Source of the DNA: Prorocentrum cordatum
Taxonomy: Eukaryota
Direction: 5' to 3'
DNA length: 64,000 nt
Assembly: GCA_963575745.1 (NCBI GenBank)
Contig: CAUYUJ010000025.1
Span: 1-64,000, forward strand
Of this stretch, positions 24,351 to 42,046 are shown piece by piece (positions within the stretch are counted from its first letter, which is position 1; every line of letters begins with the position of its first letter). Below the pieces are notes generated by a model. That model did not search any database. It saw only the letters and a program-made list of their open reading frames with translations, and was not told the DNA's origin. A program made the position numbers and the translations under genes.

Positions 24351-24469
24351 TTTTTCTGACTGGTCCACCACGGGCTGCCCATCACATTAAGGTGTCTTGT
24401 TGTGGTGGGTAGTTCTGCTGCCACTCAACCAGGACAACTAGCTAGAGCAAGTTGTCCCGTTGTGTCTTT

Positions 24470-24890: not shown

Positions 24891-25020
24891 AGTTCCAGTT
24901 TGTCCCTCCCGCAACCTCCCTATCACCCGAAGTGTGGTCGTGTAGGTAGGCCGCTCCCCGGAAATTCAAACCGCCCTTATCCCCCGTTTCACGCGTTTTT
25001 CTGGCTTGAATTTCGCGCGA

Positions 25021-25037
25021 GTAGCCGTTTGGCTCAA
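25021..25037 (+). other. Dinoflagellate spliced-leader-like relic upstream of the transposase
   Basis: GTAGCCGTTTGGCTCAA versus dinoSL DCCGTAGCCATTTTGGCTCAAG (one substitution, one gap). Confidence 0.6.
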
Positions 25038-25093
25038 AAAGGGCGGCTCAACACACTTGGGGAAAGCAGTGTCAGGGGGATCTACTGCACGGG

Positions 25094-28000
25094 ATGGTGT
25101 TGCTTGCGCCGCCGCTTCGTTTCGGGCCCCAGCCCTTGGCGGGAAAGAGGGTGAAACCCGTGCGCGCTGAGGGGGGGCAGAAACCGACTGCCGCGAGGGC
25201 GACTCGGAGGAAGGCCGAGGCACAGAAGACATCGCATTCGATCATGCCAAGCTACAGGAGGCACACATTTCAAAGTGTTGGGCGCTCCTCGCTGCGAAAG
25301 CTGAGTCCATTGAGGAAGTCGTCGCAGCCTCTGGCGCGGAGGCCACGGTCATGCGCGGCGGTCAAAGCGGCGAAGAGGTCACAAGCTCCGGCTCTGATTT
25401 CCCCGCCGTTGGCACGGAAGGTTCCCAAAAGTGGAAAGGGTTCGCAGACTCTGTCGCGAAAGCGCCCCATTTCGGATGACATGCTCCAGGTGTTTGACGG
25501 GTCCCTTTCCGAGGCGCAGCATCTGGAACGCCATGCGGCTTGCAAGGGTTTCTGCATTCGGTGCGATTTGCAGAAGCGCCCCAAGGTTTACGAGGCGTGT
25601 ACCCTCTACGAGGGCCGTTCTTGGTTGTCGCGAGGCGTTAACCGTGGCATATGGGGCCTCGGGTGCAGGATATGCGCTGAGTTTGCGGCTTCTGGCAACA
25701 AGTGTGACGGCGCCAGGTTTTCAAAGTTTGCCAAGTTCCAGATTCGCCCGAAGACGGGTTTTCACGCCAGGATGCTTTTAGAACGACATAGCACTTCCGA
25801 TTCGCACCGCGTGGCCTGTGGGATAAAAAAGAGAAAGGGTTCCGACATGTTTGCTCAGCCGACTGTACCACAGCCTCTGGCGTGCCCGACCGTTTGGCCA
25901 ACTGAGAAGCCATGCGAGCTTCTGGTGACCGAGTCTGATACTGGCTTGATAAAGGGAAACGCACCGTCCCCATCGGAGTGGAAAGACGCGTTGGCGGTGC
26001 TATCAGAAGGAGTCTCTCACCGGAAGGACGCTCGCATCTGCGATAAGAAAGGGCACGCGCCTGGCTCGGTGGCGAACAGAAGACGGAAACGCCATCGCCG
26101 ACAAGTCCAAGTGATGGCGGAGGTCTTGAGGAAGAATATCCGCAAAGTGCTGCACCAGGCGACTTCCATATCTTTGGCTATCGATGAGTCGAAGTATCGG
26201 AAAATCGTCCGGTTTCGCGCCGACCTTCCTGCTGTACAACATAGCGGTCAGGGCTTCCACTTGGGCAACGTTGGTGCGTCAGGATATTGCCTCTCGGGCG
26301 TGTTAGGCCTTCTCGACTGCTCGAAGAAACACGCGTCCGACTTCGAGGAGGACCACGCTGTCACTGCGGTTAAGCAGCTTGATGCATTTCTGACAAACTT
26401 TTGCACGCCGCTCGGCAGAATTAAGGGCCGCAGGGGGGCGCAGCCCCTGGCGTGCGATGAGGAACTGAAAGCACACGTGCTGCGAACAGTCACCAGTTTC
26501 TCTGCTGATGGCGCGTCCAAGGAGCGGCGTTCAGTCTTCCTCGCTGCTCGCGAACTGTTCCCCAACTTGTTAATCGCGATTCGCGATCCAGCACACGCCA
26601 TACGCATTGCCGTCAAGTCGATGCATTGCGACGACGTGTTTGGGGAGGTCTGGAGGGAGCTGTTCAATGATCGGCATGCGTTGGTTCCTGACCTAATGCA
26701 CTCTAACAAGCTGCACAACCTTCTGGTGGCAATCCAGGAGGACAACGTGCACGCAGTGGCAGTGCCTGGGTTGCCTGGAGGACCCCAGCCCCTGGCGGGA
26801 ATCGTGCGGAATTTGGCGTTCGCCAAGCAACGCTTCGACTCGACGGCGGACCCAGTGTTGAAAATCGCCCTCTTGCTCGTGCCGGTGGCAACTTTGCTAG
26901 CGCACATCGCGTCGGACCGTCGCCACGACCGGGAGCAGCGCCATCGGGCGGGCGCCTTGTTGCGGAAATTCGATACTAAGTTCTGTATGGCCGTTGGTGT
27001 GGCCGCGGACTGGGGGATCATATGCAATTGGTTCTTGCGACTCTTCGACGTCGCCAGCCACGACATTGCAAAGTCGCGTTCCGAGATCGATTGCATGGTC
27101 GAGACGCTGGATGCTGTCTTCATGGAAGGGCGGGTCTTCCAGTCGGCCCTCCAGGTACCTCCCGTCGCAGCCGCAGCCTCTGGCGCGACCGCCCCGGCTT
27201 CCGAGGAGCCGCTACCGCGGCTCCGTGTCCGAGCGGAAGGACACGAGGCTGGCTTCGTCACAGAGACGGTCATGCGCGATCTTCGCCGCAGGTATGTGTT
27301 CTACGCAGACGGAGACCCCGTGATGCCATGGGGGGAACCAGCAGCAGCGCACAAGGAGGAGCTCCTCCACCGATTGCAGAACGTGGCGAGCTTGACAAAA
27401 GAGCGCTTGCTCGCGGACTTCCCGCGGACTGACGTCCGCTCGGCGCTGGCCATGTTTGACCGGCGTCTCGTGCAGAAAGGCTTCGGCCCAGTGCCCGATG
27501 TGGAAGTGCGGCGTTTCCTTCTGCGGGGCGTTCGCCAGCTGGCGGGCCTCCTCGGCTGCGACGAGCAGGCGGCGGTATTGCAGTACAACGGCGTGCTTCC
27601 CTACATGATGCAACAGATGGGGCCATCCCAGCCACTGGCGGGGGCAACTAACCAGCAAGCGTGGGCTCGCATTCTCGACGATGTCTTTTGGGAGGCGGCT
27701 TGCCCGAACCGGCTCCGTGGGGCCTCTCGCATGCTCTGCCGCCTCGTGCGTTTCTACATTTCGATTGAAGACGGGGAGTGCACCGTCGAGCGCGACTTAG
27801 CCCGATATCGGGATCAACGGGTAGAGCACCGCACTGATGATATTGCTTTTCACGACGACTGCTTGATCCTGAAGTTGAACGGGCCGAAGACGGCATCAGA
27901 ATTCGACGAAGGCGCGGCTCGCCCTGGACTAGGCTTGACGTCCTTCTCCAGGGAATGCGCCAGCCTCTGGCGGGAACTGCTCGGCCAACGGCGTGGGCAT

Positions 28001-28885
28001 TACAACCCTCAAGCTACTGCGGCGGCCACGTTAAAAAGGAAGAGCGCGCCCGGGCTGGTTCGCGGACGTTCTCGGGCCGTCCTTGGGGCCGCCCGCCTGG
28101 CCGTGACTGTTGCCCGCATTCGACGGGCGCGGGGCCCGTCGACCGCGGTGCATTCCGGCGCCGGCACTGAGGGGGGCGCTTTGTGGAGCGACGACATGGG
28201 TAAGTTCCAAGCGCGCAGCCGCAACAATATACCAGGCGTCCAGCAGACGCGGGCGCGTCCAGGGGCGCCTTTCGTGAACCCGCCCGGCGTCAACCTGGCC
28301 CCGAGACTAGGTTCGACGACGCAGCCTCTGGCGCGGCCCTCGCCGTACAGCAAGGTAGCAAGCCTCGGCGGTGCGACCGACATGTGCCCTGCGAGAGGTT
28401 GCGCTACTGCCACTGGCAGTCACCGTTGCGCAGAAGCAGACCTCGTCGTCGTTCCAGACTTGGCGTTTCTCCACGACGTGGACGCGCTGGCAGCAAGTGT
28501 GGATCTGGCCGTCTCTTTCTTTTACATCGCCTCGCTTGGCCTGGGCGTCGTTACGCAGACGCTCCTGGTCGCAGCCCAGGGCCACCCAGACAGAATTCCA
28601 CTCGACCATCGCACGCGCCACGTCCCAGCAAACGAGCGCCAGGAGGTTATTCATCTCGGGCCAGGCCTCGTCACGGTGCATCCAGATGCGCGGGCGGCGG
28701 TGCGGCGCGTGGCCCGCAGAGCGGGGTCGAACCTCGCAGTGTCGGAAGCGGCACCCCCAGCCTCTGGCGGGACGCTTTTCTCGACTCTGCGCGACGTCGT
28801 CGCATGGGCGTCTGCAGCGAGGCAGGTGAGGGATTATATAGGGCCCAAAGCAGTGACTGTGGACGGAATTCCAATGCGCGCCTGA
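25094..28885 (+). CDS. hAT-superfamily-like DDE transposase with N-terminal zinc finger (a downstream ATG at 25244 is an alternative start)
   Basis: Intact 1263-aa ORF. Zinc finger: W..GLGCRIC...LERHSTSDSH (TTF-like). Catalytic/core motifs: SLAIDES (D at 26183), FSADGAS (D at 26507), RDPAH (CxxH equivalent), QRFDS (RW equivalent), CTVERDL (E at 27788), in hAT order. Confidence 0.75.
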   Translation: MVLLAPPLRFGPQPLAGKRVKPVRAEGGQKPTAARATRRKAEAQKTSHSIMPSYRRHTFQSVGRSSLRKLSPLRKSSQPLARRPRSCAAVKAAKRSQAPALISPPLARKVPKSGKGSQTLSRKRPISDDMLQVFDGSLSEAQHLERHAACKGFCIRCDLQKRPKVYEACTLYEGRSWLSRGVNRGIWGLGCRICAEFAASGNKCDGARFSKFAKFQIRPKTGFHARMLLERHSTSDSHRVACGIKKRKGSDMFAQPTVPQPLACPTVWPTEKPCELLVTESDTGLIKGNAPSPSEWKDALAVLSEGVSHRKDARICDKKGHAPGSVANRRRKRHRRQVQVMAEVLRKNIRKVLHQATSISLAIDESKYRKIVRFRADLPAVQHSGQGFHLGNVGASGYCLSGVLGLLDCSKKHASDFEEDHAVTAVKQLDAFLTNFCTPLGRIKGRRGAQPLACDEELKAHVLRTVTSFSADGASKERRSVFLAARELFPNLLIAIRDPAHAIRIAVKSMHCDDVFGEVWRELFNDRHALVPDLMHSNKLHNLLVAIQEDNVHAVAVPGLPGGPQPLAGIVRNLAFAKQRFDSTADPVLKIALLLVPVATLLAHIASDRRHDREQRHRAGALLRKFDTKFCMAVGVAADWGIICNWFLRLFDVASHDIAKSRSEIDCMVETLDAVFMEGRVFQSALQVPPVAAAASGATAPASEEPLPRLRVRAEGHEAGFVTETVMRDLRRRYVFYADGDPVMPWGEPAAAHKEELLHRLQNVASLTKERLLADFPRTDVRSALAMFDRRLVQKGFGPVPDVEVRRFLLRGVRQLAGLLGCDEQAAVLQYNGVLPYMMQQMGPSQPLAGATNQQAWARILDDVFWEAACPNRLRGASRMLCRLVRFYISIEDGECTVERDLARYRDQRVEHRTDDIAFHDDCLILKLNGPKTASEFDEGAARPGLGLTSFSRECASLWRELLGQRRGHYNPQATAAATLKRKSAPGLVRGRSRAVLGAARLAVTVARIRRARGPSTAVHSGAGTEGGALWSDDMGKFQARSRNNIPGVQQTRARPGAPFVNPPGVNLAPRLGSTTQPLARPSPYSKVASLGGATDMCPARGCATATGSHRCAEADLVVVPDLAFLHDVDALAASVDLAVSFFYIASLGLGVVTQTLLVAAQGHPDRIPLDHRTRHVPANERQEVIHLGPGLVTVHPDARAAVRRVARRAGSNLAVSEAAPPASGGTLFSTLRDVVAWASAARQVRDYIGPKAVTVDGIPMRA

Positions 28886-28889
28886 GGAT

Positions 28890-30560
28890 CTTACCCGAAC
28901 AAAAAAGGAGACCCCGCCCGCAAGCAGGCAAGATCACCCAGACGTAGGCCGCACCTCGCCAAACAGTGAACCAGACCACCCAGAAGTAGATCAGACACCG
29001 CCCATATTATAATCAGACCGCCCAGAAAGTAGACTTCCCTCCCCCCCCAGAAAAAAGTAAGCCGGAACGCCCGCAAGTAGACCAGACCCCGTCAAAGAGG
29101 TAACCAGACCACCCAAAAGTGAGGCAGGCCACCCAGGTAGCAGGCCAGACCCAGCCACGAAGTAAAGCAGACCCCGCCAAAAAAGTCATCCAGACCGCCC
29201 AAAAGTAGACCACCTCCGACCCAGAGTAGACCAGACCCCGCCCACAAGTAGACCAGACCACCCAAAAGTAGACCAGACCCCGTCCACAAGTAGAGCAGGC
29301 ACCACCCAAAATTATACCAGGCCGCGCAAGCACACCCGAGCCCGGACAACAGTAGACCAGACCCCGTCAAAAAGTACACCAGACCCCGCAAAAGTAGACC
29401 AGGCCCAGCCCGCAAGTAGACCAGACCCGCCCAACAACTAGACCAGACCGCCCCAAAGTAGACCAGACCCCGCCCAAAAGTAGACCAGACCACCCAGAAA
29501 GTAGTCAAGACCCCGTCCAAAATATACCAGACAACCCCAAACTAGACCAGACCCCGCCAACAAGTAATCCAGACCACCTAAAGGTAGACCAGACCGCGAC
29601 CCAGAGCACGCCAGGCCAGCCGCAAGTAGACCAGACCCCAGACAAAAATAGACCAGACCGCGTCAAAAAGTAGACCAGACCCCGCCCAACAGTAGACCAG
29701 ACCCCCCAAAAAAGAAATAACACATATATATATATATATATATCCAGACTGCCCCAAAGTAGACCAGAGCCCGCCAACAGGTCATCCATGCCACCCAAAA
29801 GTAGACCAGACCCCAACCCAGAGTAGACCAGACCAACGGCAACTAGACCAGACCCAAGACAAAAGTAGACCAGACCCCGACCAGAAGTAGATCAGACCCC
29901 GCCCAAAAGTAGATCAGACCACCCACACGGAGACCAGACCCCGTCCAAAAGTAGACCAGACCCGCCCAACAGTAGATCAGACCACCCGCAAGGAGACCAG
30001 ACCCCGCCCAAAAGTAGACCAGACCCGCCCAAAAGTAGATCAGACCACCCGCGAGGAGACCAGACCCCGCCCAAAAGTAGATCAGACCCCGCCCAAAAGT
30101 AGATGAGACCACCCATAAGGAGACCAGACCCCGCCCATAAGTAAACAAGACCCGCCCAACAGTAGACCTGACCAACCACGAGTAAACCAGACCCCGCCCA
30201 AAAGTAGACCAGACCCCGCCCAAAAGTAGATCAGACCACCCACAAGCAGTCCAGGCCCCGCCAAAAGTAGACCAGACCCCGCCCAAAAGAAGATCAGACC
30301 ACCCACAAGGAGACCAGACCCTGCCCACAAGTAGATCAGACCCCGCCCGCAAGTAGATCAGACAACCCATAAGCAGACCAGGCCCCGTCCAACAGTAGAC
30401 CAGACCCGCCCAAAAGTAACCAGATCACCCACAAGGACACCAGACCCCGCCCCAAAGTACATCAGACCCCGTCCAAAAGTAGATCAGACCACCCACAAGG
30501 AGACGAGACCCCGTCCAAACGTAGAGCAGACCACGCCCGAAAGAATGAATAAGACATCCA
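28890..30560 (+). repeat. 21-22 bp minisatellite, AAAAGTAGA(C/T)CAGACCCCGCCC
   Basis: Tandem array starting just after the ORF1 stop. Confidence 0.92.
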
Positions 30561-30651
30561 CCCAGCGCAGCTGATCGGTTCAAGGACCAAGTGCTGGCAA
30601 CGAGGCGCGCGCCCGACTCTTCTTGCGTCTCTTCGTGTGCTCGCGCCGCCC

Positions 30652-33588
30652 ATGGCGCCTCATCAGGAAGCTCTTCCCGCGCCGAAGAGGCCGCGCACGG
30701 CACAGCAGCCTGCAGCGCCGCCTGCACCGGCGCCTGCGGCGCCGTCTGCAGCGGCGCCCTCACCGCCTGCGCCATTGGCCGTCGAGGAGCTGCTCGAGAT
30801 GGATTCGGTGCAGAGCCAGGCGGGGCATCTGATCAATTGGGCCAAGGGGGCCAAGGAGTACGTCGACAATGCCCTCCTGAAGTTCCTGTCTGAGAAGCAA
30901 GCACTGGTGGCCTTCAAAGTGCCCGCCTCCGTCATGCTCATCCCTCCTCTGAAAATTTCTTCCGCAGCCTCTGGCGCGCACCTGACATCGTTTCGGGAGG
31001 TCATGCAGTACGACAACTTGCAGTTGAGCTTCTCTACGACGGGGCAGTACGAGGCTGCAGGGACGGTGTGGATGCTTGACCCGCTCGCCGCCGACACGTC
31101 CGACATCGTCTCTATCAGCCAGCTCGATGCCGCCATGGCGAACTGGACTGAGGAGAGGCTCTTGCTGTCTTCCGACCACCCGCCGTCGCGGCGCTACTCG
31201 TTCGACGTGCCGCTCCCAGCGCGAGTTGTCAACACCAAGGTTGCCCAGCGCATGACCGAGGGCGAATCCACTGTTCTCATGGCAACGGGAGTGCCCATGC
31301 TGGCGGGGCACCCGCTTGTGTTGGCGTGGTATGGCGCCATGGCAGAGGCATTGTCCGCCGGCAACAGTGATCGCACATTCAAGCTGTTTGAGGCAGCTTT
31401 GTCTGTGCCGATCAGGCTGCGTCTCAGCCCCGACCCTGACGCCTGCCTGCTAGCGTCGCTGCTGTTCTCTGAGACCGTATTCTCTACTTCCGCAGCCTCT
31501 GGCGCGGATGCCTTTTGGAAGCTGGCTGAAAAGGTGAGTCGCCTGACAAAGTACCAGAAGGCTGTGGCCGAGAACATATCTCTTCCGAAATTGACCAAAG
31601 TCCTCACGACCTACGGGATCACGTTCAAGGGCAACGCGCTCACCGAGGCACACGCCAAGGCTTTGAAAAGCTTGACGCCTTTCGTCGGGAATCACGCTTG
31701 CGCCGTGGCTTACTCTTTGGCGGAGGCTTTCTGCCCCGAGCTCCGCGAACCCACGCTGTTGATGCGGCTGGCGCAGCTCTGCAAAGCAAGGACGGCGCCC
31801 TCCCAGGCAGACAAGGACGCGGCTGCCTGCGACTCGATGGCGTTCGTCCTGGACTGCTTGCGCGTTGCCCGGCTGACAGGCGACGCCCCCAGGGGGGGGG
31901 GGCTTTCTGTGGGACGGGTCACGGGGCAAGAGAAAAAGACCCCCGCGCTGACGCACGTGCTGTTCAAGAAACATGATGTCATCGAGTACATTATGCACGA
32001 GGCGGCGATGATCGACAAAGACATGGTGCCTACAGTATCCATGTTTCGCTCGCCGCTTGCCATCGTGAAGCACTTCTCAGCCTCTGGCGAGAAAGGCTTA
32101 GCTGCTGCATTTCGGCGAGAGGAGAGCTCCGATAACACAGGGTTGGAAAACATGTTCGCTGTCCCCGTGGCCGAATACCGCGACCAGCAAGGCCGAGAAG
32201 CGAAGACGCAGGCGTTGATCGACTTCGCGTGGGCCGTTTGGGCTGGCCACTTCGACGAGGAGCTCCAGGAGCTGGCCGCCAAAGACCTGCAGGGAGGTGC
32301 AGCCGCCTTCCTGTGGCACCGGTATTTCACCGATAGCACCAAGGAGATGGGCGTCAAGTACCGCGCGCTGACCGCTGCTTGCGCGGCGGGTCCCATTTCG
32401 ACTGGCACTGCCGAGGGCGGGGCCTCTGGCGTGGTCATGGGGGCGTCCGAGCTCGCGGAGGCCGACCAGGAGGACCTCAAGAAAACCAAGGACTTGCTCC
32501 TCTCTCTTCGCAGGAAGTCCGTTTCGTTCGTGGCGCTGCCGTCGGTTGGCGGAGCCACTGGCGCGGAACACAGCACCGCCCAGTTGCAGAAACTCTGGGA
32601 AGAGATGCGTCTCGGACATAGGTACGCCAGGAAAAAGCAAGACGTCCGAGCATTCGTTGTGTCGGCCGACCTGTTCGCCCCAAACGTGAGCAAGAGCGGG
32701 GCGGCGGCGAGCTTGGGCGACCACGTCGCTGTGGATGCGGAGCGTTTCGGGCGGGTGCTTGATTTCGTCTCGCAGAAGCGTTCGGTTCACGATATCGTCA
32801 TTTTCCTCGACGGGCGGAGCCGGTCGTGCCGCAAACTGCTCGAGGACAAAGAGGAGGGTCTCGCAGCCTCTGGCGCGCACGCTGTGACTGAGTGTTGGTG
32901 TGTGTATGTGCAGCCGGGCAAGGCACAGGACCCCAGAGTCCCGGGAAGAGTGACTTGTTTTGCGTGCAACAACAAGGAAGTCGTCATCTGCTCCATCCCG
33001 AAAAGAGGCGCCATGAAGGTAGTGCAGCGCGCGGAGTTCAACTTGTGCGGCGAGACCACGAGTTCGTACACGACGTACACGGGCGTGCCTATGCGGCAGT
33101 ACCGCGAGCTGCCGCGGATGACCCACGACACGAAGGCCTCGATCTTGGGAAACGCAGCCGCTGGCCCGGTGAGAGGGAGGCGCGCGCAGAAAGACATCGA
33201 GGCGAACGGGCACCCCTTCTCGCACTTGGAGGTCAAGCCATTGAGCTTTTGGCAGCGGATTTGCGAGCACCATCACATCACGCACATCGTTGACTTCACG
33301 GCGGGGTCTGGCGCGTTGGCAATCGCAGCCTCTGGCGCGATGGAGTACGAGGGCGTGGCGGTCAACGAGGTGCACCGGGAGTGGCTCGACGCGACCTTGG
33401 ACCGATGCGCACTGTACATGGCGGGGCATGACAAGAATTTCGCCCAGAAGCTCGGCGGCGACGACGGTTTCGCTGAGAAAGTAGAGAAGTACTTCGCGGG
33501 AACGATGATGGAGGTGCGGCGCTTGCTCGAGCCAATCGCGGACGAGGTGGACGGGGATGGGGGGAGCTCGGACTCAGCGGAGGAGTAG
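30652..33588 (+). CDS. Large protein with C-terminal N6/N4 DNA methyltransferase-like (SAM-binding) domain
   Basis: Intact ~978-aa ORF. C-terminal HPF..KP..W..I...IVDFTAGSGALAIAA..YEGVAVNE matches the beta-class amino-MTase pattern HPT.KP...VLDPFxGSG..A..A...GIE. No DPPY motif found. Confidence 0.6.
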   Translation: MAPHQEALPAPKRPRTAQQPAAPPAPAPAAPSAAAPSPPAPLAVEELLEMDSVQSQAGHLINWAKGAKEYVDNALLKFLSEKQALVAFKVPASVMLIPPLKISSAASGAHLTSFREVMQYDNLQLSFSTTGQYEAAGTVWMLDPLAADTSDIVSISQLDAAMANWTEERLLLSSDHPPSRRYSFDVPLPARVVNTKVAQRMTEGESTVLMATGVPMLAGHPLVLAWYGAMAEALSAGNSDRTFKLFEAALSVPIRLRLSPDPDACLLASLLFSETVFSTSAASGADAFWKLAEKVSRLTKYQKAVAENISLPKLTKVLTTYGITFKGNALTEAHAKALKSLTPFVGNHACAVAYSLAEAFCPELREPTLLMRLAQLCKARTAPSQADKDAAACDSMAFVLDCLRVARLTGDAPRGGGLSVGRVTGQEKKTPALTHVLFKKHDVIEYIMHEAAMIDKDMVPTVSMFRSPLAIVKHFSASGEKGLAAAFRREESSDNTGLENMFAVPVAEYRDQQGREAKTQALIDFAWAVWAGHFDEELQELAAKDLQGGAAAFLWHRYFTDSTKEMGVKYRALTAACAAGPISTGTAEGGASGVVMGASELAEADQEDLKKTKDLLLSLRRKSVSFVALPSVGGATGAEHSTAQLQKLWEEMRLGHRYARKKQDVRAFVVSADLFAPNVSKSGAAASLGDHVAVDAERFGRVLDFVSQKRSVHDIVIFLDGRSRSCRKLLEDKEEGLAASGAHAVTECWCVYVQPGKAQDPRVPGRVTCFACNNKEVVICSIPKRGAMKVVQRAEFNLCGETTSSYTTYTGVPMRQYRELPRMTHDTKASILGNAAAGPVRGRRAQKDIEANGHPFSHLEVKPLSFWQRICEHHHITHIVDFTAGSGALAIAASGAMEYEGVAVNEVHREWLDATLDRCALYMAGHDKNFAQKLGGDDGFAEKVEKYFAGTMMEVRRLLEPIADEVDGDGGSSDSAEE

Positions 33589-33899
33589 ATCGCAGGCGCG
33601 CGATCGCGGGTGGGAAAACGACGCAGCCTCTGGCGCGCCACTGACGCGGCCTGGCCCTGACTCAGGTGTCGAAATTTTGCGCGCGTCGCGACTCCAGTGC
33701 GTGAGCAGTTCCGGGGTGACGCCTCTGGCGCGCGAGGAAGCGTGCAAGACCTTCCAGCGCGGCCAAGTTTTGATGGGTAGACCAGTCTCTTGCCCGGAGG
33801 CGCAGCTTCATACGCGCCCTTGGACGCGCGCGGCGCTGTTACGCAACAGAGGAAATGTTCCGACCCCGCACAGACGCAAGCCAATCCATTCAGCGCAGA

Positions 33900-34600
33900 A
33901 GGCCAGGCCGCCCGTCAAACCAGGCCAAACCACCCATAAGTAGACCAGACCCTGTCCACAAGTAGAGCAAAACCCGCCCAAAAGTAGACCATACCACCCA
34001 TAAGTAGACCAGACCCCGCCCAAAAGTAGATCAGACCACGCCCAAAAGTAGATCAGACCACACACAAGGAGACCAGACCCCGCCCAAAAGGAGATCACAC
34101 CCCGCCCAAAAGTAGATCAGACCACCCGCAAAGAGACCGGACCCCGTCCAAAAGTAGACCAGACTCGCCAGACAGTAGACCAGACCACCCTTGAGTAGAC
34201 CAGACCCCGCCTTAAAGTAGGTCAGACCCCGCCCAAAAGTAGATCAGACCACCGACAAGGAGACCCGGCCCCGTCCAAAAGTAAACCAGACCCGCCCAAC
34301 AGTAGACCAGACCACCCTTGAGTAGACCAGACCCCGCCTTAAAGTAGGTCAGACCACGCCCAGAAGTGCATCAGACCACCCACAAGGACGCCAGACCTCG
34401 CCCAAAAGTAGATCAGACCCCGCCCAATAGTAGATCAGACCACCCACAAGGAGACCAGACCCCGTGCGCAAGTAGAGCAGACCCCGCCCAAAAGTAGATC
34501 AGACCACCCACTAGTAGACCAAACCCTGTGCCCCAGTAGAGCAGGCCCGCCCAAAAGTACACCAGACCACACGCAAGTAGAGCAGACTCCGCCCAAAGTG
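33900..34600 (+). repeat. AAAAGTAGACCAGACCCCGCCC array
   Basis: Same unit as 28890-30560. Confidence 0.92.
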
Positions 34601-34604
34601 CGTC

Positions 34605-35110
34605 ACACCCCGTCCAGAAAGAAAAAGGGCCCGCTTCTGGAAACCAGGGAAGACAGCCCGGGCAGTTTCTGGAAACGAAAAAAGAAAACCAGGCCGTTTA
34701 TGAAACCGAGAGAAGAAAACCGGGCCGTTTCTGGAAACGAGGAAAGGAAAAGGGCCGTTTCTGAAACCGAGGGGAGAAAACCGGGCCGTTTCTGGAAACG
34801 AGAAAACAAAACCGGCCCGTTTCTGGAAACGAGGAAAGAAAAAGGGCCGTTTCTGAAACCGAGGGAAGAAAACCGGGCCGTTTCTGGAAACGAGGAAAGA
34901 AAACCGGGCCGTTTCTGGAAACGAGGAAAGAAAAAGGGCCGTTTCTGAAACCGATGGAAGAAAACCGGGCCGTTTCTGGAAACGAAGCAAGAAAACCGGC
35001 CCGTTTCTGAAACCGAGGGAAGAAAACCAGACTGCTTCTGGAAACGAAGGAGGAAAGTAGCCCACTAGGCATGCTTTCATTTTCTCATCTCGGTTCTGAA
35101 ACCGAGGGAA
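34605..35110 (+). repeat. ~30 bp GGGCCGTTTCTGGAAACGAGGAAAGAAAA array
   Basis: Tandem units with an internal CGTTTC-TG-GAAACG palindrome. Confidence 0.9.
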
Positions 35111-35229
35111 GAAAACATGTTCGGATTTGGCATGTTGGCGAGCATGTTGTGGGCCCTATATGACATGTAGTATAGAGCCCACAACATTCTCGCCAACATG
35201 CTAGACCCGAACATATTTTCTTCGCTCGG
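35102..35229. repeat. Long hairpin (~59 bp arms, 10 nt loop) near the centre of a large palindrome
   Basis: 35102-35160 is the reverse complement of 35171-35229, with about 7 mismatches. Confidence 0.9.
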
Positions 35230-35309
35230 TTTTGCAACCGAGCGAAGAAAACATGTTCGGATTTCCGACATGTTTTCTTTCTTTGTGTGGGGGGGGGGGG
35301 GACCACAAG

Positions 35310-35740
35310 TTTTCTTCTGTCGTTTCCAGAAACGGTAGGGTTTTCTTCCCTCGGTTTCAGAAACGGCCCTTTTTCTTTCCTCGTTTCCAGAAACGGCCCG
35401 GTTTTCTTTCCTCGTTTCCAGAAACGGCCCGGTTTTCTTCTCTCGGTTTCAGAAACGGCCCTTTTTCTTTCCTCGTTTCCAGAAACGGGCCGGTTTTGTT
35501 TTCTCGTTTCCAGAAACGGCCCGGTTTTCTTCCCTCGGTTTCAGAAACGGCCCTTTTTCTTTCCTCGTTTCCAGAAACGGGCCGGTTTTGTTTTCTCGTT
35601 TCCAGAAACGGCCCGGTTTTCTCCCCTCGGTTTCAGAAACGGCCTTTTTTCTTTCCTCGTTTCCAGAAACGGCCCGGTTTTCTTTCCTCGTTTCCAGAAA
35701 CGGCCCGGTTTTCCTTCCTCGTTTCCAGAAACGGCCCGGT
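35310..35740 (-). repeat. Inverted copy of the ~30 bp array
   Basis: TTTTCTTTCCTCGTTTCCAGAAACGGCCC units. Confidence 0.9.
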
Positions 35741-35749
35741 TATATTTTA

Positions 35750-36730
35750 TGGTCGGGGTCTGATTTACTTTTGGGAGGGGTCTGGTCAACTTATGTGTGG
35801 TCTGGTCTACTTTTGTGCGGGCCTGCTCTACTTGTGGACAAGGTCTGGTCTACTAGTGCGTGGTCTGATCCGCTTCTTGGGCGGGGTCTGATCTACTTTT
35901 GGGTGGGGCATGATCTCCTTGCGGGTGGTCCGATCTACTTTTGGGCGGGGTCTGATCTAGTTTTGGGCGGGGTCTGGTCTACATGTGGGTGGTATGATAT
36001 GCGTCTGGGCGGGTCTGCCCTATTTGTGGACCAGGTCTGGTCTACGTTTGGGTGGTCTGATCTACTTTTGGGCAGGTCTGGTCTACTTTTAGGCGGGGTC
36101 TGGTCTCCTTGCGGGTGGTCTGATCCACTTTTGGGCGGTGTCTGATCTACTTGCGGGCGGGATCTTGTCTCCATGTGGGTGGTCTGATCTACTTTTGGGC
36201 GAGGTCCCTTCTACTTTTTGGGGGGGTCTGGTCTACGTATGGGTGGTCGGGTCTGCTGTTGGGCGGGTCTGCTCTACTTTAGGGCGGGATCTGGTCTCCT
36301 TGTGGGTGGTCTGATGTACTTTTGGGCGGGGTCTGATCTACTTTTGGGTGGGGTCTGATCTCCTTGCGGGTGGTTTGATCTGCAATTGGGCGGGTCTGCT
36401 CTACTTGTGGACGGGGTCTGGTCTCCTTGTGGGTGGTCTGATGTACTTTTGGGCGGGGTCTGGTCTCCGAGTGGGTGGTCTGATCTACTTTCGGGCGGGG
36501 TCTGATCTACTTTTGGGCGGGGTGTGGTCTATTTGCGGGTGGTCTGCTCTGCTTTTGGGCGGGTGTGCTGTACTTGTGGGCAGGGTCTGGTCTACGTATG
36601 GGTGGTCGGATTTATTTTTGGACGGGGTCTGGCCTACTTTGACGCGGGGTCTGGTCTCCTTGTGGGTTGTCTGATGTACTTTTGGGCGTGGTCTGATCTA
36701 CTTTTTTGGGCGGGGTGTGATCTACTTTAG
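35750..36730 (-). repeat. Inverted AAAAGTAGACCAGACCCCGCCC array
   Basis: GGGCGGGGTCTGATCTACTTTT units. Confidence 0.92.
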
Positions 36731-37863
36731 ACCATGAATTTCCATGGCGTGTGTTTGTTACATCTTCTTAACTTGTTTGCTTTGCTACGACATGCTATCC
36801 CAAACCGTGCTCCGTGATCGTTTGAACGCTGTCCATATGTACGCATTCCCGTGGTACGCCATGCGTTGTTAAGCAATGCTGTGCCACGCCGTGCGCTGCT
36901 CTCCGGTGTGGTGCGATGCTATGCTATAGTATGCGACGCCATCCGACGGGATACCATGCTGTAGCTCTGGTGTTCCCACCCAACAACCTCTCTGTGAGAC
37001 ACATGGTGGTCGTGTGTGAATGTTGTACACAGTACGGCTCTGGCGTACTTCTGGGCAGTGTCTGGACTTGGTGCGAGTGTGCTCTGTGCATTGCATTGCA
37101 ACGCCTTGCGAACACATGGAACCTTGTGCGATGCGATGATATGCCGTGCTAGGCCACGCGATGCAGTGCTATGCGATCCCATGCTATGGCTCCTGTCGGG
37201 CCCTCCCCCCCGGGGTGGCTGGTCGCGTGGGAATGTCGGCGCGGAATCTCAGAGACTTCATAGAGCTGCGCGTGCCAGCCATGCAAGTTTGCGCGCGCCT
37301 GGCACGCGGAGGGACGGGGGCAGGGGTGGGGCGGAAAGTGGGAGGAGGAGGAGGTTTTGGACGAGGACGAGGACGAGGACGAAGAGGAGGGAGTGGAAGT
37401 GGGAGGAGGAGGAAGGAGTAGTAGAGCAGGAGGGAGTAGAAGACGAGAGGAAGTGGGACGAGGAGGAAGGAGTACAAGAGGTGGGAGAGAACAACCATGG
37501 AATATGGGGAGGCGGACCAATCGTCGCCACGGCTGGAGCATGCTGGAGCCACGGAGGCATCGTCGCCACGGCTGCCTTCGCCTCGAAACTCTGGCCAGAG
37601 CGTCGCCACGTCGCCAACGTCTCTAGGAGAGCAGTGCGCCCCCGGAGGGCCGTTCGTCGCCACGGCTGGACGCACCTCTGAAAATCGAGGCGGTTGGATC
37701 CTGGGAGGGCTCCAGGGAGCGGTTGTGAGTAAGACGGGGAGGAGGAAAAAGAGGCAGGGGGCAGCTGCTCTCCACAGCCGTCTCGGCCCAAGCCGCTCGT
37801 GCTGCAAGCGCCTCCAAGCCCTCTCGGCCCAGTCCACAGCCGCTCCAAGCCCTCTCGGCCGGG

Positions 37864-40484
37864 ATGTCGGAGCATCCACTCGCTGGGCCCCAACCTTTGG
37901 CGGGAGACTTGACTGAACCCCAGCCTCTGGCGGGAAACTTGCGGGATTGGCGCCGCGGCAATCCTCTCCGAACCAGCGAGACCATTGCCTTTGGCAATAC
38001 CAGCGCCAAGCCGACCCCCGGCGCACAACGGCCGTGGCACTACTACTCAGTCCAAATGCCTACCGGGGGAAGCCACAAGTGGCTCTTCGTTCCTTTCCTC
38101 GTGAGGGCCCCAGCCTCTGGCGGGGCACCCCTTCCAATGGGAGCGCCGCAGGAGGCGCAGTTGGAAACCAGAGTGAGGGAGGGCGTTTTGATGGAGCACT
38201 ACACCAACATCCACCGCCTACGCGCCCTCTTGCTGAGCCACCCGCTCGTCTCCACCGCCGCGCCGCACAAGGTGGACAAGGCGCTCGACCCCAAGTGTTT
38301 CGACGAGGACGGTTGGGCCTATAAATATCACCAGTCCCCTTGGGACTTGTCAGTGACGCTCGCAGCCTCTGGCGCGAAGTTCACCCTCGGATGGACCACA
38401 AACCATATCAAGAAGCCGCTCGCGGCGATGTGGTGGTTGATGCAAGGGAAGGCCGCGACGGCGGATAACCTCGCCCACGCGGAGGCGATATTCTTGGATG
38501 TCGCCGAGGCCGCCCGCTCGTGGCCGCTCGGCTTCCCCCCTGAGGAGGGGGGGGCCGGGGCCAGTGCGAGCTCTTCCTCTGCCGGCGTCGCGCCCCAGCC
38601 TCCGGCGGCCACTGCGGCGCCGCCGCCGGCCAGGCCCCTGCCTCCGGCGGCAATTGCGGCGCCGCCGCCGGCCAGGCCCGCGCCTCCGGCGGCAACTGCG
38701 GCGCCGCCGACGGCCGGGCCCCAGCCTCTGGCGGGAGACGCGGCGCGGGCGCCGGCCCGCGCCAGCGAGCCCGCGCCGGAGAGGCCGCCGGCCCCCGGCG
38801 AGCCCGCGCCGCAGAGCCCGCCAGCCCCCAGCCAGCCCGCGCCGCAGAGCCCTCCGGCCCCGGACACCGCCTGTCCGGTGGAGCCTTTGGCGGGGGCGCC
38901 CGCCGCCGCGCCGGGGGCGTCCGCCGACGCCACCAGCGCGGCCTCCGCGCTGCTGCCAGCGGCGAGCGTCGATGCCGGTGCTGCCGCCTGCGACAAGCCT
39001 GCGGACAGCGCCCCAGGCGGCGCCGAGCGCCGCGACCACCTCGAGGATTTCCAGCTGGACGAGGCGATGAGGATGTCCGAGCAGGAATCGGCTGAAGTCC
39101 GCGATCTCGATTACAGCCCAGATCAGAAGTCGGACCCTCCGTCGGACGAGGAGGAGGAGGGCGTCGAGGCCGACCCAGCGGAGCCGCAGAGCAGGGTGCG
39201 TCGCCGCTCGAGGTCGCGAGCGGGGCCCGCGCGCCCGCGCGACCCAGCCTCTGGCGGGGCGGACGGCGAGATCGACCTCACCATGCACGTGTCCGCCAAG
39301 AGGCTGCAGCGGCTGACCGAGGACCAGAAGGAGCGGCTTCGCCAGATTGTGCGCACCAGCGATAGGCAGCTGCACTTCGGCGATTACTGGCAGAGCAGGC
39401 CGCGGGCGGGGGGTCCTCCTCGGGAGCCAGCGGCGACGGCCAGGGCTCGCGATCAGCATCGGGCGCTGCTCCTCCAGCACCTGCGGGCGCACGCGGACCC
39501 GATCCCAGACGCCGCAGAGTTCATCGCGGGAATCCCTTCCAAGAACGCCGGGCGCTGGGGCGTCAACGAGGATGTCGTGAAGGCCATCGCCAGCAGGAAG
39601 GTCCACTACATGCATTTGCTGACCCACCAGATGGGGGAGCACGACCGTCTGCTCTTCTGCGAGGAGTGGCCGGACCTCAGCCCAGCCTCTGGCGGGTGGT
39701 GGGTGCTCCAGGAAGAGGACTGGCTGCAGCTCAAGCAGGAATGGCGGGGGTTGTCTCCAGCGATGCGAAAGCCCAGTCCACCCCCAGCAACGTCCTCTCC
39801 GCCCATCCCCGCTTCCCCCCGCGCGGGAGGGGGGGGGGTCGGCGAACGAGGAGGGAGAGGACGAGGAGGGGGGAGGGGAGGGGAGAGGGGGCGAGGGCGA
39901 GGAGGGGGATTGGGGAGAGGGCGGCACCGACGGAGACACCCGTCGCCTCGATTGAGGACTTCCCCGGCGTGCGCGACACGCGCGACTACGTCAAGCACAT
40001 TTTGACGCTGCACGATGGCGAGGCCAGGCTTGTGCGCACAGAGTGGAAGCCCTTCCCAGCCTCTGGCGGGAGCATCCTTCAACCTGCCTACTGGCATTAC
40101 CAATTCGCGCGCAGCTGGGCGACTTATTCGTGGCTCTCCTCACGCAAAGGGCACTTGACCAACGAAGACTTGGAGTTGATCATGACACAGGACGGCGGCG
40201 AGACTGGCTTGATGAGGTGGAACCCAGCCTCTGGCGGGAACTGGCAGATCCGCACTGGCCAATTCATCGCGCTGGCCGAACTCTTCTGGTTCGGGAAAGA
40301 CTGGTGCTCATGCTACGATATCTACCGCGCTTACCTGAGCCTGCCTGTCTGGATCCAGAAGCGCAAGCATCCTGTCTCGCAGAATGCGCCGGGAACCATG
40401 AGGCGCAACGCGAAAGCGTTTCACTACCAGGAGACCGGTATGTACGGTTTGCCCACGGCGCCTTGGAAACGCGGGCGGCGGTGA
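37864..40484 (+). CDS. Hypothetical protein with Pro/Ala-rich linker; apparent frameshift near 39830-39920
   Basis: ORF 37864-40005 is protein-like up to a G-rich tract. Protein-like sequence (SIEDFPGVRDTRDYVKH...WKRGRR) continues in ORF 39666-40484. Confidence 0.6.
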
Positions 40485-41139
40485 GCACGTGCCCTTGGCG
40501 CCTTCGGTGCCGATCCCAGCCTCTGGCGGGAATAGTCTCGCGCCCAGCTCTGGTGCCCGTGTCAGTTTTGGCGGAAGTGCAGATTCCGCGCCCAGCTCTG
40601 GTGCCCGTGTCAGTTTTGGCGAGAGTGCAGATTCCGCGCCCGAGCGACGCCGAAAAACGTTTGAAATGAGCTTCCCTCGTCGTCGTCGTCGTCGTCTCCC
40701 CTCCGCCTCCCTGCTGCATTATTCCTCAGTCCCCCCCCCCTGCTCCCGATGCTTACTTATCTTTCTCCCTCGTGAGGGCCAGGGCGCAGCGAAACCCAGC
40801 CTCTGGCGAGATGGAGGCTCGACGTCCGGGGAATGCCCCGCGCAACCAGAACAGGACTGCCTGCCCCGTCCTCCGGGGGACTTCGCTCCTGCGTCGCTAT
40901 CCCGTCCTCTGCCTGCCCCCGGCTCTACTTGTCCCCCTGGAGCCTCTTGGGGGTTCCTGGGGCCTCCTGGGGCTTCCTGAGGCTTCCCAGGAACTCCAGG
41001 GGCCTCCTGCGGCCTCCTGGGGCCGCCCGGGACCTCCTGCGCCCTCCTGCGGCCTCCTGCGGCCTCCGGGGCTTTCCTGGTCAGAACAACGCAGGACACG
41101 TGACAAAACAAGGTATACCGAACCAAAAAAAACAAACTC

Positions 41140-41830
41140 AAAGTAGATCACACCCGCCCAAAAGTAGATGAGACCCGCCCAAAAGTAGGTCAGACCACAC
41201 GCAAGGAGACCATACCCCGTGGAAAAGTAGATCAGACCCCGCCCAAATGTAGATCAGACCACCCGCAAGGAGACCGCACCCCGTCCAAAAGTACACCAGA
41301 CCCGCCCAAAAGTAGACCAGACCACCCAAAAGTAGACCAGACCCCGTGGAAAAGTAGATCAGACCCCGCCCAAAAGTAGACCAGACCCCGCCCAAAAGTA
41401 GATCAGACCCCGCCCAAAAGTAGATCAGACCGCCCGCAAGGAGACGTGACCCCACCCACAAGTAGATCATACCCCGCCCAGAAGTAGATCAGACCTCCCA
41501 CAAGGAGACCAGACCCCGCCCAAAAGTAGATCAACCCCCAGCCAAAAGAAGATCGGCCCCTGTCCCCAAGTAGCGCAGACCCGCCCAAATGTAGACCAGA
41601 CCCCACCCCAAAGTAGATCCAGCCCCGCCCACAAGTAGATCAGACCAGCCGCAAGGAGACCAGACCCCGTCCCAAAGGAGACCAGACCCCGCCCAAAAAT
41701 AAATCAGACCTCCCACATGTGCACCAGACGCCGCCCAGAAGTGTACCAGCCCCACCCCAGAGGAAATCATACCGCCCATTATGAGGCCAGATATCGTCCC
41801 AAAGTAGACCAGTTACCGCCCAGTAGGGCA
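41140..41830 (+). repeat. AAAAGTAGACCAGACCCCGCCC array
   Basis: Same unit; lies between ORF3 and ORF4. Confidence 0.92.
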
Positions 41831-42046
41831 GATTAAATACACCCAAAGAAAGCACCTGCCCCCGCCCATAATTGTACTACACTGCTCTTCGCAGCATGCA
41901 ACAAACGCTTGACGCCCCTCTCACTATCCGATTGTGCGTAGCTGCGTGGGCTCGAGCGCGCACTGGTCCAGCCCGCGCTCTTCGTGCGGGCTATCGGCCG
42001 CGCGGGGTGACGGAGCGCTCCGCGCGCTCTCGCAGCCTCTGGCGCG

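What the first reader, a model, noticed from the sequence alone, without database searches (positions are those of the whole stretch)
25021..41956. A degenerate spliced-leader-like sequence precedes each of the four genes
Seen, compared with dinoSL DCCGTAGCCATTTTGGCTCAAG. ORF1: GTAGCCGTTTGGCTCAA (25021-25037). ORF2: CGCAGCTGATCGGTTCAAG (30566-30584, weak). ORF3: TCCACAGCCGTCTCGGCCCAAG (37771-37792, 16/22, all six mismatches are transitions, followed by two further AAGCCCTCTCGGCC echoes). ORF4: TGCGTAGCTGCGTGGGCTCGAG (41935-41956, 15/22). Each lies about 55-210 nt before the start codon. Established: SL relics mark genes recycled from trans-spliced mRNA in dinoflagellates. Inference: the element's genes, including the transposase, were assembled by retroposition, or the relics are retained as 5' regulatory signals.
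Basis: partly seen in the sequence, partly recalled or inferred. Interest (0 to 1): 0.7.

Follow-up and report, generated by a model that had tools for sequence, protein, structure and literature searches.

The report
Worn spliced-leader copies before transposon genes
A large jumping-gene cluster in a dinoflagellate genome carries worn copies of the host's universal mRNA leader just ahead of its genes, a known dinoflagellate signature that here sits inside a cut-and-paste transposon family and seems to be kept by selection.

Summary
Partly confirmed. All four quoted strings are at the stated coordinates, 56-90 nt before the start codons.

**Strength of each site**
- ORF1 (25021-25037) stands on its own: gapped score 13; sites scoring 13 or more, 2 seen against 0.16 expected.
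- ORF3 (16/22) and ORF4 (15/22) are at chance by window-wide count. They are unlikely by position (P 0.003 and 0.013), and all six ORF3 mismatches are transitions (P 0.003).
- ORF2 is at chance level in this copy.

**Evidence from relatives**
- Of 9 ORF1-family genes (8 from environmental contigs), 4 carry a leader-like block scoring 11 or more, 55-94 nt before the ATG (P about 1e-5).
- An ORF2 homolog and another downstream gene carry one too.

**Source and element**
- The source is a Prorocentrum-like dinoflagellate (81-91% identical annotated homologs).
- ORF1 folds like the Hermes hAT transposase. ORF2 ends in a beta-class N6/N4 methyltransferase fold.

**Reading**
- These are old DinoSL relicts at the canonical -50 to -100 position. 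They are inherited with the genes and probably kept as 5' signals.
- This copy was not assembled by recent retroposition.

DinoSL relicts are a known kind; this is a new setting for them. The scan has reported leaders in retroelements, giant hAT-like transposons and one-strand hairpins elsewhere in this genome.

The parts
25021..25037 (+). Leader-like block before ORF1 (GTAGCCGTTTGGCTCAA). A second GGCTCAA lies at 25045-25051.
   Evidence: local score 13; P 0.002 per 300 nt; 56 nt before the ATG. The same block is found before ORF1 homologs in L017, L009 and L003.
30566..30584 (+). Weak leader-like block before ORF2
   Evidence: chance-level score in this copy. The ORF2 homolog on L016 has GTCGCAGTTTTGGCTCGAG ending about 28 nt before its ATG.
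37771..37863 (+). Leader-like 22-mer (37771-37792) followed by repeated pieces ending in CAAG or CCAG, up to the ORF3 ATG
   Evidence: 16/22, all 6 mismatches are transitions, positional P 0.003. Reading the echoes as truncated relicts is my own inspection.
41935..41956 (+). Leader-like block before ORF4
   Evidence: 15/22, positional P 0.013. It shares TGTGCGT...GGCTCGAG with the L016 block; that alignment is not significant on its own (P 0.3).
40556..40625 (+). Two further leader-like copies inside a 48-bp tandem repeat, about 190-250 nt before a possible small ORF starting at 40811
Evidence: 15/22 and 14/22.
50883..50904 (-). Independent, better-preserved leader relict before an unrelated minus-strand ORF (50519-50860)
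   Evidence: 18/22; 0.007 expected per window; 22 nt before the ATG.
25094..28885 (+). ORF1, hAT-type transposase-like protein, 1263 aa
   Evidence: 45 homologs. The AlphaFold model of residues 330-1000 has mean pLDDT 74. The top 10 Foldseek hits are all Hermes (E 1.4e-5 to 8e-4).
30653..33588 (+). ORF2, large protein ending in a beta-class N6/N4 methyltransferase-like domain
   Evidence: 43 homologs. The fold matches M.RsrI, M1.HpyAVI and CcrM. The usual catalytic tetrapeptide position reads DGRS.
37864..40005 (+). ORF3, conserved protein of unknown function
   Evidence: 227 library proteins at E <= 0.001.
42047..42976 (+). ORF4, conserved small protein (homologs are about 259 aa)
   Evidence: 54 homologs, including one from P. 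cordatum at 71% identity.
43335..44282 (+). ORF5, a fifth open frame that carries the same hairpin motif
   Evidence: Its homology was not searched.
25325..44298 (+). Span of 27 exact copies of the sense-strand hairpin motif CAGCCTCTGGCG
   Evidence: 27 on +, 0 on -. The motif is read in all three frames. At one stem pair the counts are GC 30, CG 19, AU 5, UA 2, other 6.
28900..30543 (+). 22-bp tandem array between ORF1 and ORF2. Sister arrays lie at 33925-34597, 35750-36728 (inverted) and 41140-41812.
   Evidence: Every unit holds AAAAG.
24356..24392 (+). Candidate left terminal inverted repeat; its partner is 45907-45943
   Evidence: 29 of 37 columns match; no 8-bp target duplication was found. 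Tentative.

Best explanation
The blocks are decayed copies of the 22-nt dinoflagellate spliced leader (DinoSL relicts). They sit at the usual relict position, about 50-100 nt before the start codon, ahead of the genes of a multi-gene hAT-type transposon-like cluster in a Prorocentrum-like genome.

Inferred origin: at some ancient point, reverse-transcribed, trans-spliced mRNAs of these genes were written back into DNA. This happened by retroposition or by recombination of cDNA with the genes' own loci. That route would also explain why all the genes are uninterrupted open frames.

Shown here: since then the blocks have been inherited at DNA level together with the genes and their spacer arrays, and they have stayed recognisable across deep divergence.

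Inferred function: they are kept by selection as 5' signals. The most likely roles are the AG at leader positions 6-7 serving as trans-splice acceptor, and the T-run plus GG serving as the promoter-like or Sm-like core. In this copy the ORF1 block is well kept, ORF3 and ORF4 are strongly worn, and ORF2 is almost erased.
For: Source organism:
- Homologs at 81-91% identity are annotated in P. cordatum.
- The window holds an independent 18/22 relict on the other strand.

ORF1 block:
- Local score 13; sites scoring 13 or more, 2 seen against 0.16 expected. P 0.002 per 300 nt.

Relatives:
- Of 9 ORF1-family 5' regions examined (the window plus 8 loci), 6 score 9 or more and 4 score 11 or more, with the block ending 51-94 nt before the ATG. 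P is 4e-5 and 1e-5. After collapsing close relatives, 3 of 6 groups score 11 or more, P 1e-4.
- The best local alignment between the 200-nt upstream regions of the window and L017 is exactly this block, at -82..-56 and -88..-59.
- Of 8 loci with at least 350 nt after the ORF1 stop, 3 have a block scoring 11 or more before the next gene (L004 12, L007 17, L016 11). L012, L013 and L014 are near-duplicates of each other and score 7.

ORF3 and ORF4:
- Positional P is 0.003 and 0.013.
- ORF3 has 6 of 6 transitions, P 0.0026.
- Pooled over my alignments of the four sites, 15 of 19 mismatches are transitions, against 37% in chance hits.

Published pattern:
- Relicts at -50 to -100 are described as better conserved, with TTT(G) the best-kept part (PMC6050394, passages read).
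- Leader-like sequences before start codons in genomic copies were noted in Amphidinium (PMC2488372, passages read).

DNA-level inheritance:
- ORF2 follows ORF1 on L016 and lies beside it on L031.
- L009 has 22-bp units like the window's arrays upstream of its block.

Acceptor role (my inspection):
- 11 of 12 blocks keep AG at leader positions 6-7.
- The sequence before the AG is mostly pyrimidine-rich.
Against: - By window-wide counts, the ORF2, ORF3 and ORF4 sites are no better than chance. Ungapped 15/22 or better: 9 seen, 5.6 expected. 16/22 or better: 2 seen, 0.82 expected. Local score 10 or more: 12 seen, 8.7 expected.
- No window site passes the published near-full-length BLASTn-short criterion. 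Among the loci only L017 does.
- The positional and transition tests were chosen after seeing the data.
- In 3 of the 9 ORF1-family 5' regions (L008, L011, L021) no block scores above 7.
- The antisense strands of the loci also gave 4 hits scoring 12 or more.
- No transcript evidence could be obtained, so neither trans-splicing at the relict AG nor any promoter role is shown.
- A second copy in the probable source run shares sequence from 24995. That is about 25 nt before the block, so the block is not the edge of the duplicated unit.
- The well-preserved minus-strand relict has 1 transition and 3 transversions, so transition bias is not general.
Confidence: 0.55

Rival explanations
1. Only the ORF1 block is leader-derived. 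The ORF2, ORF3 and ORF4 matches are chance resemblances in GC-rich 5' regions, partly produced by the element's own GCC-loop-GGC hairpin vocabulary.
For: - Window-wide counts at these score levels equal the shuffle expectation.
- None passes the BLASTn-short criterion.
- The ORF3 region is locally repetitive (period about 31) and resembles the dispersed hairpin core.
- No DNA of ORF3 or ORF4 homologs could be fetched for comparison (no hits in the 62 loci).
Against: - The positional P values are 0.003 and 0.013.
- ORF3 has 6 of 6 transitions.
- All four blocks fall 56-90 nt before their ATG, as in relatives.
- The ORF2 homolog on L016 has a clearer block.
Confidence: 0.25
2. The blocks are a cis-element of the transposon family itself, such as a promoter, a start-site element or a protein-binding stem-loop. 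It either mimics or merely resembles the host leader and never passed through cDNA. Several blocks share a G where the leader has A at position 10, which fits a family-specific consensus.
For: - In ungapped alignment, G at leader position 10 is seen in ORF3, ORF4, L017 and L009, and in ORF1 under the simplest alignment (my inspection).
- The blocks lie downstream of conserved spacer arrays.
- The family uses other strand-specific structured motifs.
- Scan notes report leader-like pieces built into other elements of this genome (unchecked).
Against: - The best members are too close to the leader over too long a stretch for convergence: L007 has 18 of 19 bases identical, and L017 has 17 of 20.
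- Several relatives keep the leader's first bases as well.
- Tandem truncated pieces after the block in L007 and before ORF3 look like the published recycling signature.
Confidence: 0.15
3. Each gene of this copy is a recent, independent retrocopy, and the cluster was assembled by retroposition.
For: - All five genes are uninterrupted open frames.
- Each is preceded by a leader-like block.
- A-rich arrays start directly after the ORF1 stop.
Against: - The blocks are strongly decayed while the frames are intact.
- The ORF1-ORF2 neighbourhood and the array units recur in relatives at 58-62% protein identity.
- Paralog homology starts about 25 nt before the ORF1 block.
- The same hairpin motif runs through the genes and some spacers alike.
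Confidence: 0.05

Closest known systems
[quoted passage not shown]
   Same: - Leader-derived sequence on the sense strand.
- It lies 50-100 nt before the start codon.
- The T-run plus G is the best-kept part.
- Truncated pieces follow the block in places.
- The genes lack introns.
   Different: - The copies are far more decayed than the published detection criteria accept.
- They sit before several different genes of one conserved multi-gene cluster that includes a DNA-transposase gene.
- They are shared by relatives at 53-60% protein identity.
Leader-like sequences before start codons in tandem gene arrays of Amphidinium carterae (Bachvaroff and Place 2008, PMC2488372, passages read)
   Same: - A genomic leader-like motif lies in the spacer just before the start codon.
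- Short spacers carry an AAAAG/C poly(A)-site motif.
- The paper suggests an RNA intermediate.
   Different: - Those are arrays of copies of one gene. Here different genes are separated by long 22-bp tandem arrays in which every unit holds AAAAG.
hAT superfamily DNA transposons (Hermes; solved structures 4d1q, 2bw3, 6dwz)
   Same: - The ORF1 core folds like the Hermes transposase over about 620 aligned columns.
- Acidic residues are invariant across 20 family members.
   Different: - No Pfam match.
- About 21-kb span with four extra genes.
- Only a tentative 37-bp inverted repeat and no 8-bp target duplication.
- Mobility is not shown.
Leader-bearing retroelements and giant hAT-like transposons noted elsewhere in this genome by this scan (AI notes, unchecked)
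   Same: - Same genome.
- The host leader is found inside mobile elements.
- Giant hAT-like elements carry cargo genes, and one-strand hairpin tags occur.
   Different: - Those leader cases are LINE, copia and DIRS elements, which copy through RNA. Here the carrier is a cut-and-paste-type element, and the leader copies precede internal genes, not the element's end.

Membership tests
DinoSL relict / recycled-mRNA gene | The host is a dinoflagellate that trans-splices DinoSL | tested here: met
   Homologs at 81-91% identity are annotated in Prorocentrum cordatum. An 18/22 relict lies elsewhere in the window. The P. cordatum paper reports dinoSL on its transcripts (PMC10666404, passages).
DinoSL relict / recycled-mRNA gene | Sense-strand similarity to the 22-nt leader beyond chance | tested here: inconclusive
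   Met for ORF1. ORF3 and ORF4 are met only by position and mismatch type. Not met for ORF2 in this copy.
DinoSL relict / recycled-mRNA gene | Published operational criterion: a BLASTn-short hit that starts within 5 nt of the query's 5' end and ends within 2 nt of its 3' end (method text of PMC9651163) | tested here: not met
   0 of 55 window hits pass. Among the loci, 1 of 520 hits passes (L017).
DinoSL relict / recycled-mRNA gene | Position about 50-100 nt before the start codon (PMC6050394 passage) | tested here: met
   56, 68, 71 and 90 nt in the window. 51-94 nt in ORF1 relatives.
DinoSL relict / recycled-mRNA gene | Tandem truncated relicts joined at the leader's internal AG | tested here: inconclusive
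   L007 has a second truncated copy 12 nt after the first. The pieces before ORF3 end in CAAG or CCAG but also fit a local 31-nt duplication. ORF1 has a second GGCTCAA.
DinoSL relict / recycled-mRNA gene | Transcripts that carry an added leader upstream of the relict | not testable with these tools
   No RNA holder was listed, and only contigs could be laid.
hAT superfamily transposon | Transposase with a Hermes-type RNase H-like core and inserted helical domain | tested here: met
   Model mean pLDDT 74. The top 10 Foldseek PDB hits are all Hermes, probability 1.0. The language-model neighbours carry hAT-related families (a lead only).
hAT superfamily transposon | Sequence membership in curated hAT families | tested here: not met
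   No Pfam family at E <= 0.1 for ORF1 or at E <= 1 for 3 homologs. The PDB profile search gave only weak HMG hits.
hAT superfamily transposon | Terminal inverted repeats with an 8-bp target-site duplication | tested here: inconclusive
   Candidate 37-bp repeats at 24356 and 45943 match in 29 of 37 columns. The flanking 8-mers agree at only 3 of 8 positions.
Beta-class N6/N4 DNA methyltransferase (ORF2 C-terminus) | Fold and SAM-binding motif; catalytic DPPY-type tetrapeptide (motif recalled, not from a call) | tested here: inconclusive
   Fold met: M.RsrI, M1.HpyAVI and CcrM, E 3e-4 to 1e-3. Pfam gives no hit. The expected tetrapeptide position reads DGRS, with D and G invariant in 26 sequences; I placed this position by eye.

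The most novel reading that the evidence does not exclude
The leader-derived block is one part of a portable expression kit carried by a family of giant hAT-like DNA transposons. Each gene brings its own host-leader-derived acceptor or promoter. It also carries a row of covarying sense-strand hairpins and is followed by an array of poly(A)-site motifs. With this kit a cut-and-paste element could express a multi-gene cargo wherever it lands, in a genome that lacks conventional promoters.
Probability: 0.25. Interest if true: 0.7.

Novelty: new member of a known kind. Interest (0 to 1): 0.45.

Why it matters
Leader relicts are the standard mark of genes that passed through mRNA in dinoflagellates. 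Their possible role as promoters or acceptors is an open question in a group where promoters are barely known.

This is a case where the relict has been carried for a long time by the genes of a DNA transposon family, including its transposase gene. It is also found in many environmental relatives. That gives a natural series of copies in which conservation of the block can be measured against its flanks, and a compact set of genes on which 5' RACE or reporter tests could decide what relicts do.

It also shows that published relict detection criteria miss old but still positioned relicts.

Tried and rejected
- **Whole genome:** none is held for this window.
- **Rfam and tRNA scans of the window:** no hits.
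- **Pfam:** nothing for the four ORFs or for 15 homologs beyond two sub-threshold chance hits.
- **PDB profile search with the ORF1 family:** only weak HMG hits, E 0.25 or worse.
- **Viral contig scans with ORF2 and the ORF1 family:** no relatives.
- **Sequencing runs:** no RNA holder was listed.
- **Laying the two listed runs:**
  - Only contigs were available, so there is no evidence on transcript ends or added leaders.
  - One contig of run X1 starts at 25014, 7 nt before the ORF1 block. A unitig end proves nothing.
  - A joint skipping 24667-28696 rests on a 30-nt side in a repeat and was not used.
- **ORF3 and ORF4 homologs:** none in the 62 loci, so their 5' regions could not be compared.
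- **Target-site duplication search:** no convincing 8-bp duplication.
- **22-bp array unit as a leader derivative:** considered, then rejected on inspection. Apart from GTAG-CCA it matches about 8 of 22 positions (my own comparison, no call).
- **RNA folding:** folding energies of single hairpins and of the ORF1 and ORF3 5' regions are not distinctive (z -0.7 to -1.5 and +0.15). Only the covariation test is informative.
- **The table:** it hides insertions and inflates identities. It is not used.
- **Paper searches:** searches for the hairpin core as text found only unrelated human and bacterial primer sequences. The search 'dinoflagellate, hAT, transposase, spliced leader' returned one paper, which does not describe this.


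Full report
**What the window is**

The window averages about 60% G+C. Between about 25 and 44 kb, five long open frames lie on the + strand:
- ORF1, 25094-28885
- ORF2, first ATG at 30653, ending at 33588
- ORF3, 37864-40005
- ORF4, 42047-42976
- ORF5, 43335-44282

None matches a Pfam family. All those searched have many homologs:
- ORF1: 45 homologs, among them four Prorocentrum cordatum proteins at 62-82% identity.
- ORF2: 43 homologs, with P. cordatum proteins at up to 91% identity. UniRef names one of them as having a DNA methylase N-4/N-6 domain.
- ORF3: 227 library proteins at E <= 0.001.
- ORF4: 54 homologs, with P. cordatum at 71% identity.

Most other homologs sit on contigs of about one gene's length.

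**What the genes are**

- An AlphaFold model of ORF1 residues 330-1000, built on a 25-sequence alignment, has mean pLDDT 74. Its ten best Foldseek matches in the PDB are all the Hermes hAT transposase (E 1.4e-5 to 8e-4, about 620 aligned columns).
- A language-model look-up gave the same lead.
- The family alignment keeps acidic residues invariant, among them D364, D472 and the block E892-D893-G-E895-C-x-V-E899. Assigning these to a catalytic triad is my inference.
- The last 344 residues of ORF2 fold like beta-class N6-adenine/N4-cytosine DNA methyltransferases (M.RsrI, M1.HpyAVI, CcrM). Where such enzymes have their catalytic tetrapeptide, the family reads DGRS (I placed this by eye), so activity is doubtful.

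**How the region is organised**

- The genes are separated by 22-bp tandem arrays. Two of these, together with a 31-bp array, form a large inverted repeat around 35.2 kb.
- A candidate pair of 37-bp terminal inverted repeats lies at 24356 and 45943 (29 of 37 columns match), just inside satellite-like direct repeats. I found no 8-bp target duplication.
- I therefore call the region a hAT-type transposon-like cluster. Mobility is not shown.
- Earlier notes of this scan describe other giant hAT-like transposons with cargo genes in the same genome (unchecked).

**Checking the observation**

I scored the leader across both strands in two ways. One was ungapped identity. The other was a gapped local score (+1 match, -1 mismatch, -2 gap). 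I compared both with dinucleotide-preserving shuffles done in 1-kb blocks.

- **ORF1.** The block is the leader's positions 4-21 with one mismatch and one missing T, giving a local score of 13.
  - Sites scoring 13 or more number 2 in the window against 0.16 expected (P 0.018).
  - On real control sequence, the chance of 13 or more in a 300-nt stretch is 0.002.
- **ORF3.** 16/22 is confirmed. Sites at this level occur twice against 0.82 expected.
- **ORF4.** 15/22 is confirmed. Sites at this level occur 9 times against 5.6 expected.
- **ORF2.** The site scores below both.

Taken as a window-wide frequency test, the last three sites are at chance. None of the four passes the near-full-length BLASTn-short rule used in published relict surveys.

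**Why ORF3 and ORF4 may still be real**

Two further tests speak for these sites. Both were chosen after seeing the data.

- **Position.** The chance of a 16/22 match within the 229 positions before a given start is 0.003, and of 15/22 it is 0.013. All four blocks end 56-90 nt before their ATG.
- **Type of mismatch.** In 31 chance hits of the same window only 37% of mismatches are transitions, giving P 0.0026. Pooled over my alignments of the four sites, 15 of 19 mismatches are transitions (P 0.0002).

They also fit a local 31-nt duplication (my inspection).

- A tandem pair of leader-like copies at 40556 and 40604.
- The best relict of the window, 18/22 on the minus strand at 50883-50904, 22 nt before the ATG of an unrelated ORF (0.007 expected).

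**Relatives settle the main point**

A scan of metagenome contigs with the ORF1 family returned 62 loci.

For ORF1, eight loci plus the window give nine 5' regions with an identifiable start codon. I identified the starts through the shared N-terminal P-L-R-F motif.
- Six have a leader-like block scoring 9 or more, ending 51-94 nt before the ATG: the window 13, L017 14, L003 12, L009 11, L001 9 and L005 9.
- L008, L011 and L021 have nothing above 7.
- Against a control rate of 0.094 (score 9 or more) and 0.018 (score 11 or more) per 300 nt, this gives P 4e-5 and 1e-5. After collapsing close relatives it gives P 1e-4.
- The best local alignment between the upstream 200 nt of the window and of L017 is exactly this block, at matching distances from the ATG. 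In a five-way alignment it is the most conserved patch.

The same holds for other genes:
- On L007, a block with 18 of 19 bases identical to the leader ends 61 nt before a different gene downstream of ORF1. A second truncated copy follows it.
- On L016, a block ends about 28 nt before the ATG of the ORF2 homolog.
- On L002 and L004, a block follows ORF1 by about 170-190 nt.
- In total, 3 of 8 loci with enough downstream sequence score 11 or more.
- The antisense strands of the loci gave 4 hits scoring 12 or more, so the background in such contigs is not zero.

**What this says about origin and function**

The similarity of the best members to the leader is too long to be convergent, so the blocks derive from the leader.

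They are not fresh retrocopy ends, for four reasons:
- They are worn while the frames are intact.
- ORF2 lies next to ORF1 also on L016 and L031.
- L009 carries units like the window's 22-bp arrays upstream of its block.
- A second copy in the probable source run shares sequence from about 25 nt before the block.

So the blocks were inherited at DNA level with the cluster. They have stayed recognisable at 53-60% protein identity, where neutral sequence should be randomised. That points to selection.

This agrees with what is in print:
- Relicts between -50 and -100 are described as more conserved regardless of age, with TTT(G) best kept, and a promoter role has been proposed (PMC6050394, passages read).
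- Leader-like sequences before start codons in genomic copies were taken as a sign of an RNA intermediate (PMC2488372, passages read).

By my inspection of the blocks, 11 of 12 keep the AG of leader positions 6-7, and the preceding sequence is mostly pyrimidine-rich. This fits reuse as a trans-splice acceptor.

An origin by recombination of cDNA with the genes' own loci would explain relicts before every gene, the lack of introns and the preserved gene order at once. This is inference.

No transcript data could be had.

**Seen in passing: sense-strand hairpins**

- The 12-mer CAGCCTCTGGCG occurs 27 times, always on the + strand, between 25325 and 44298.
- It lies in all three reading frames, giving QPLA, ASG or SLWR in the proteins. 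It also lies in some spacers and directly before two ATGs.
- Its 10-nt core occurs 49 times in sense and twice in antisense in the 62 loci.
- On 69 instances (62 distinct) chosen by the core alone, the flanking pair covaries: GC 30, CG 19, AU 5, UA 2, other 6. None of 500 shuffles reaches the covariation score, and all shifted registers score far lower.
- The motif is therefore a selected hairpin with a bulged A and a UCU loop.
- A text search of papers for the core found nothing relevant.
- Earlier notes of this scan report differently spelled one-strand hairpins in other mobile elements of this genome (unchecked). This part is not new to the scan.

**Verdict**

- Comparative evidence shows that leader-derived blocks are a true and old feature of this gene family.
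- The phenomenon is a known one (DinoSL relicts). What is new is the setting, the genes of a hAT-type DNA-transposon-like cluster, and the depth of retention.

Noticed in passing
window 25325-44298 (+), for example 25321-25340, 37917-37936, 42029-42048: There are 27 exact copies of CAGCCTCTGGCG, all on the + strand and in all three reading frames. They form a hairpin with a bulged A and a UCU loop. The closing pair covaries (GC 30, CG 19, AU 5, UA 2, other 6 of 62 distinct). The same core occurs 49 times in sense and 2 times in antisense in 62 related loci.
   Followed up: yes
window 28900-30543, 33925-34597, 35750-36728 (inverted), 41140-41812: A 22-bp tandem array follows each gene. Its unit is CCCAAAAGTAGACCAGACCCCG, and every unit holds AAAAG, the published dinoflagellate poly(A)-site motif (PMC2488372). 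L009 has similar units upstream of its ORF1 homolog. The arrays may act as reiterated poly(A) or termination signals.
   Followed up: partly
window 34617-35047 and 35309-35741: Arrays of a 31-bp unit lie in inverted orientation around a spacer of about 260 bp. Each unit holds the perfect small palindrome CGTTTC-TG-GAAACG. Together with the flanking 22-bp arrays they make a large inverted repeat centred near 35.2 kb.
   Followed up: no
window 32554-33585 (ORF2 C-terminus): This region has a beta-class N6/N4 DNA methyltransferase fold with a clear glycine-rich SAM-type motif. However, the family-wide invariant reads DGRS where the catalytic tetrapeptide is expected. It may be an inactive or re-purposed methyltransferase.
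   Followed up: partly
window 25066-25090; L001, L008, L009, L011, L017 and L021 just before the ORF1-homolog ATG: A conserved short palindrome lies 10-45 nt before the start codon of ORF1-family genes, downstream of the leader-like block. In relatives it is of the type GCACAGCG...CGCTGTGC; in the window it is GCAGT...ACTGC.
   Followed up: no
window 50883-50904 (-): This is the best leader relict of the window (18/22). It lies 22 nt before the ATG of an unrelated 113-codon minus-strand ORF (50519-50860), which looks like an ordinary retrogene signature.
   Followed up: partly
window 24258-24350 and 45946-46309: Satellite-like direct repeats of about 93-110 bp (77% identity) lie just outside the candidate inverted ends at 24356 and 45943, as if the cluster sits inside a short satellite.
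   Followed up: partly
window 39666-40484: An open frame in another phase continues past the ORF3 stop at 40005 and carries two more hairpins. ORF3 may be interrupted by a frameshift or a short intron near its end.
   Followed up: no
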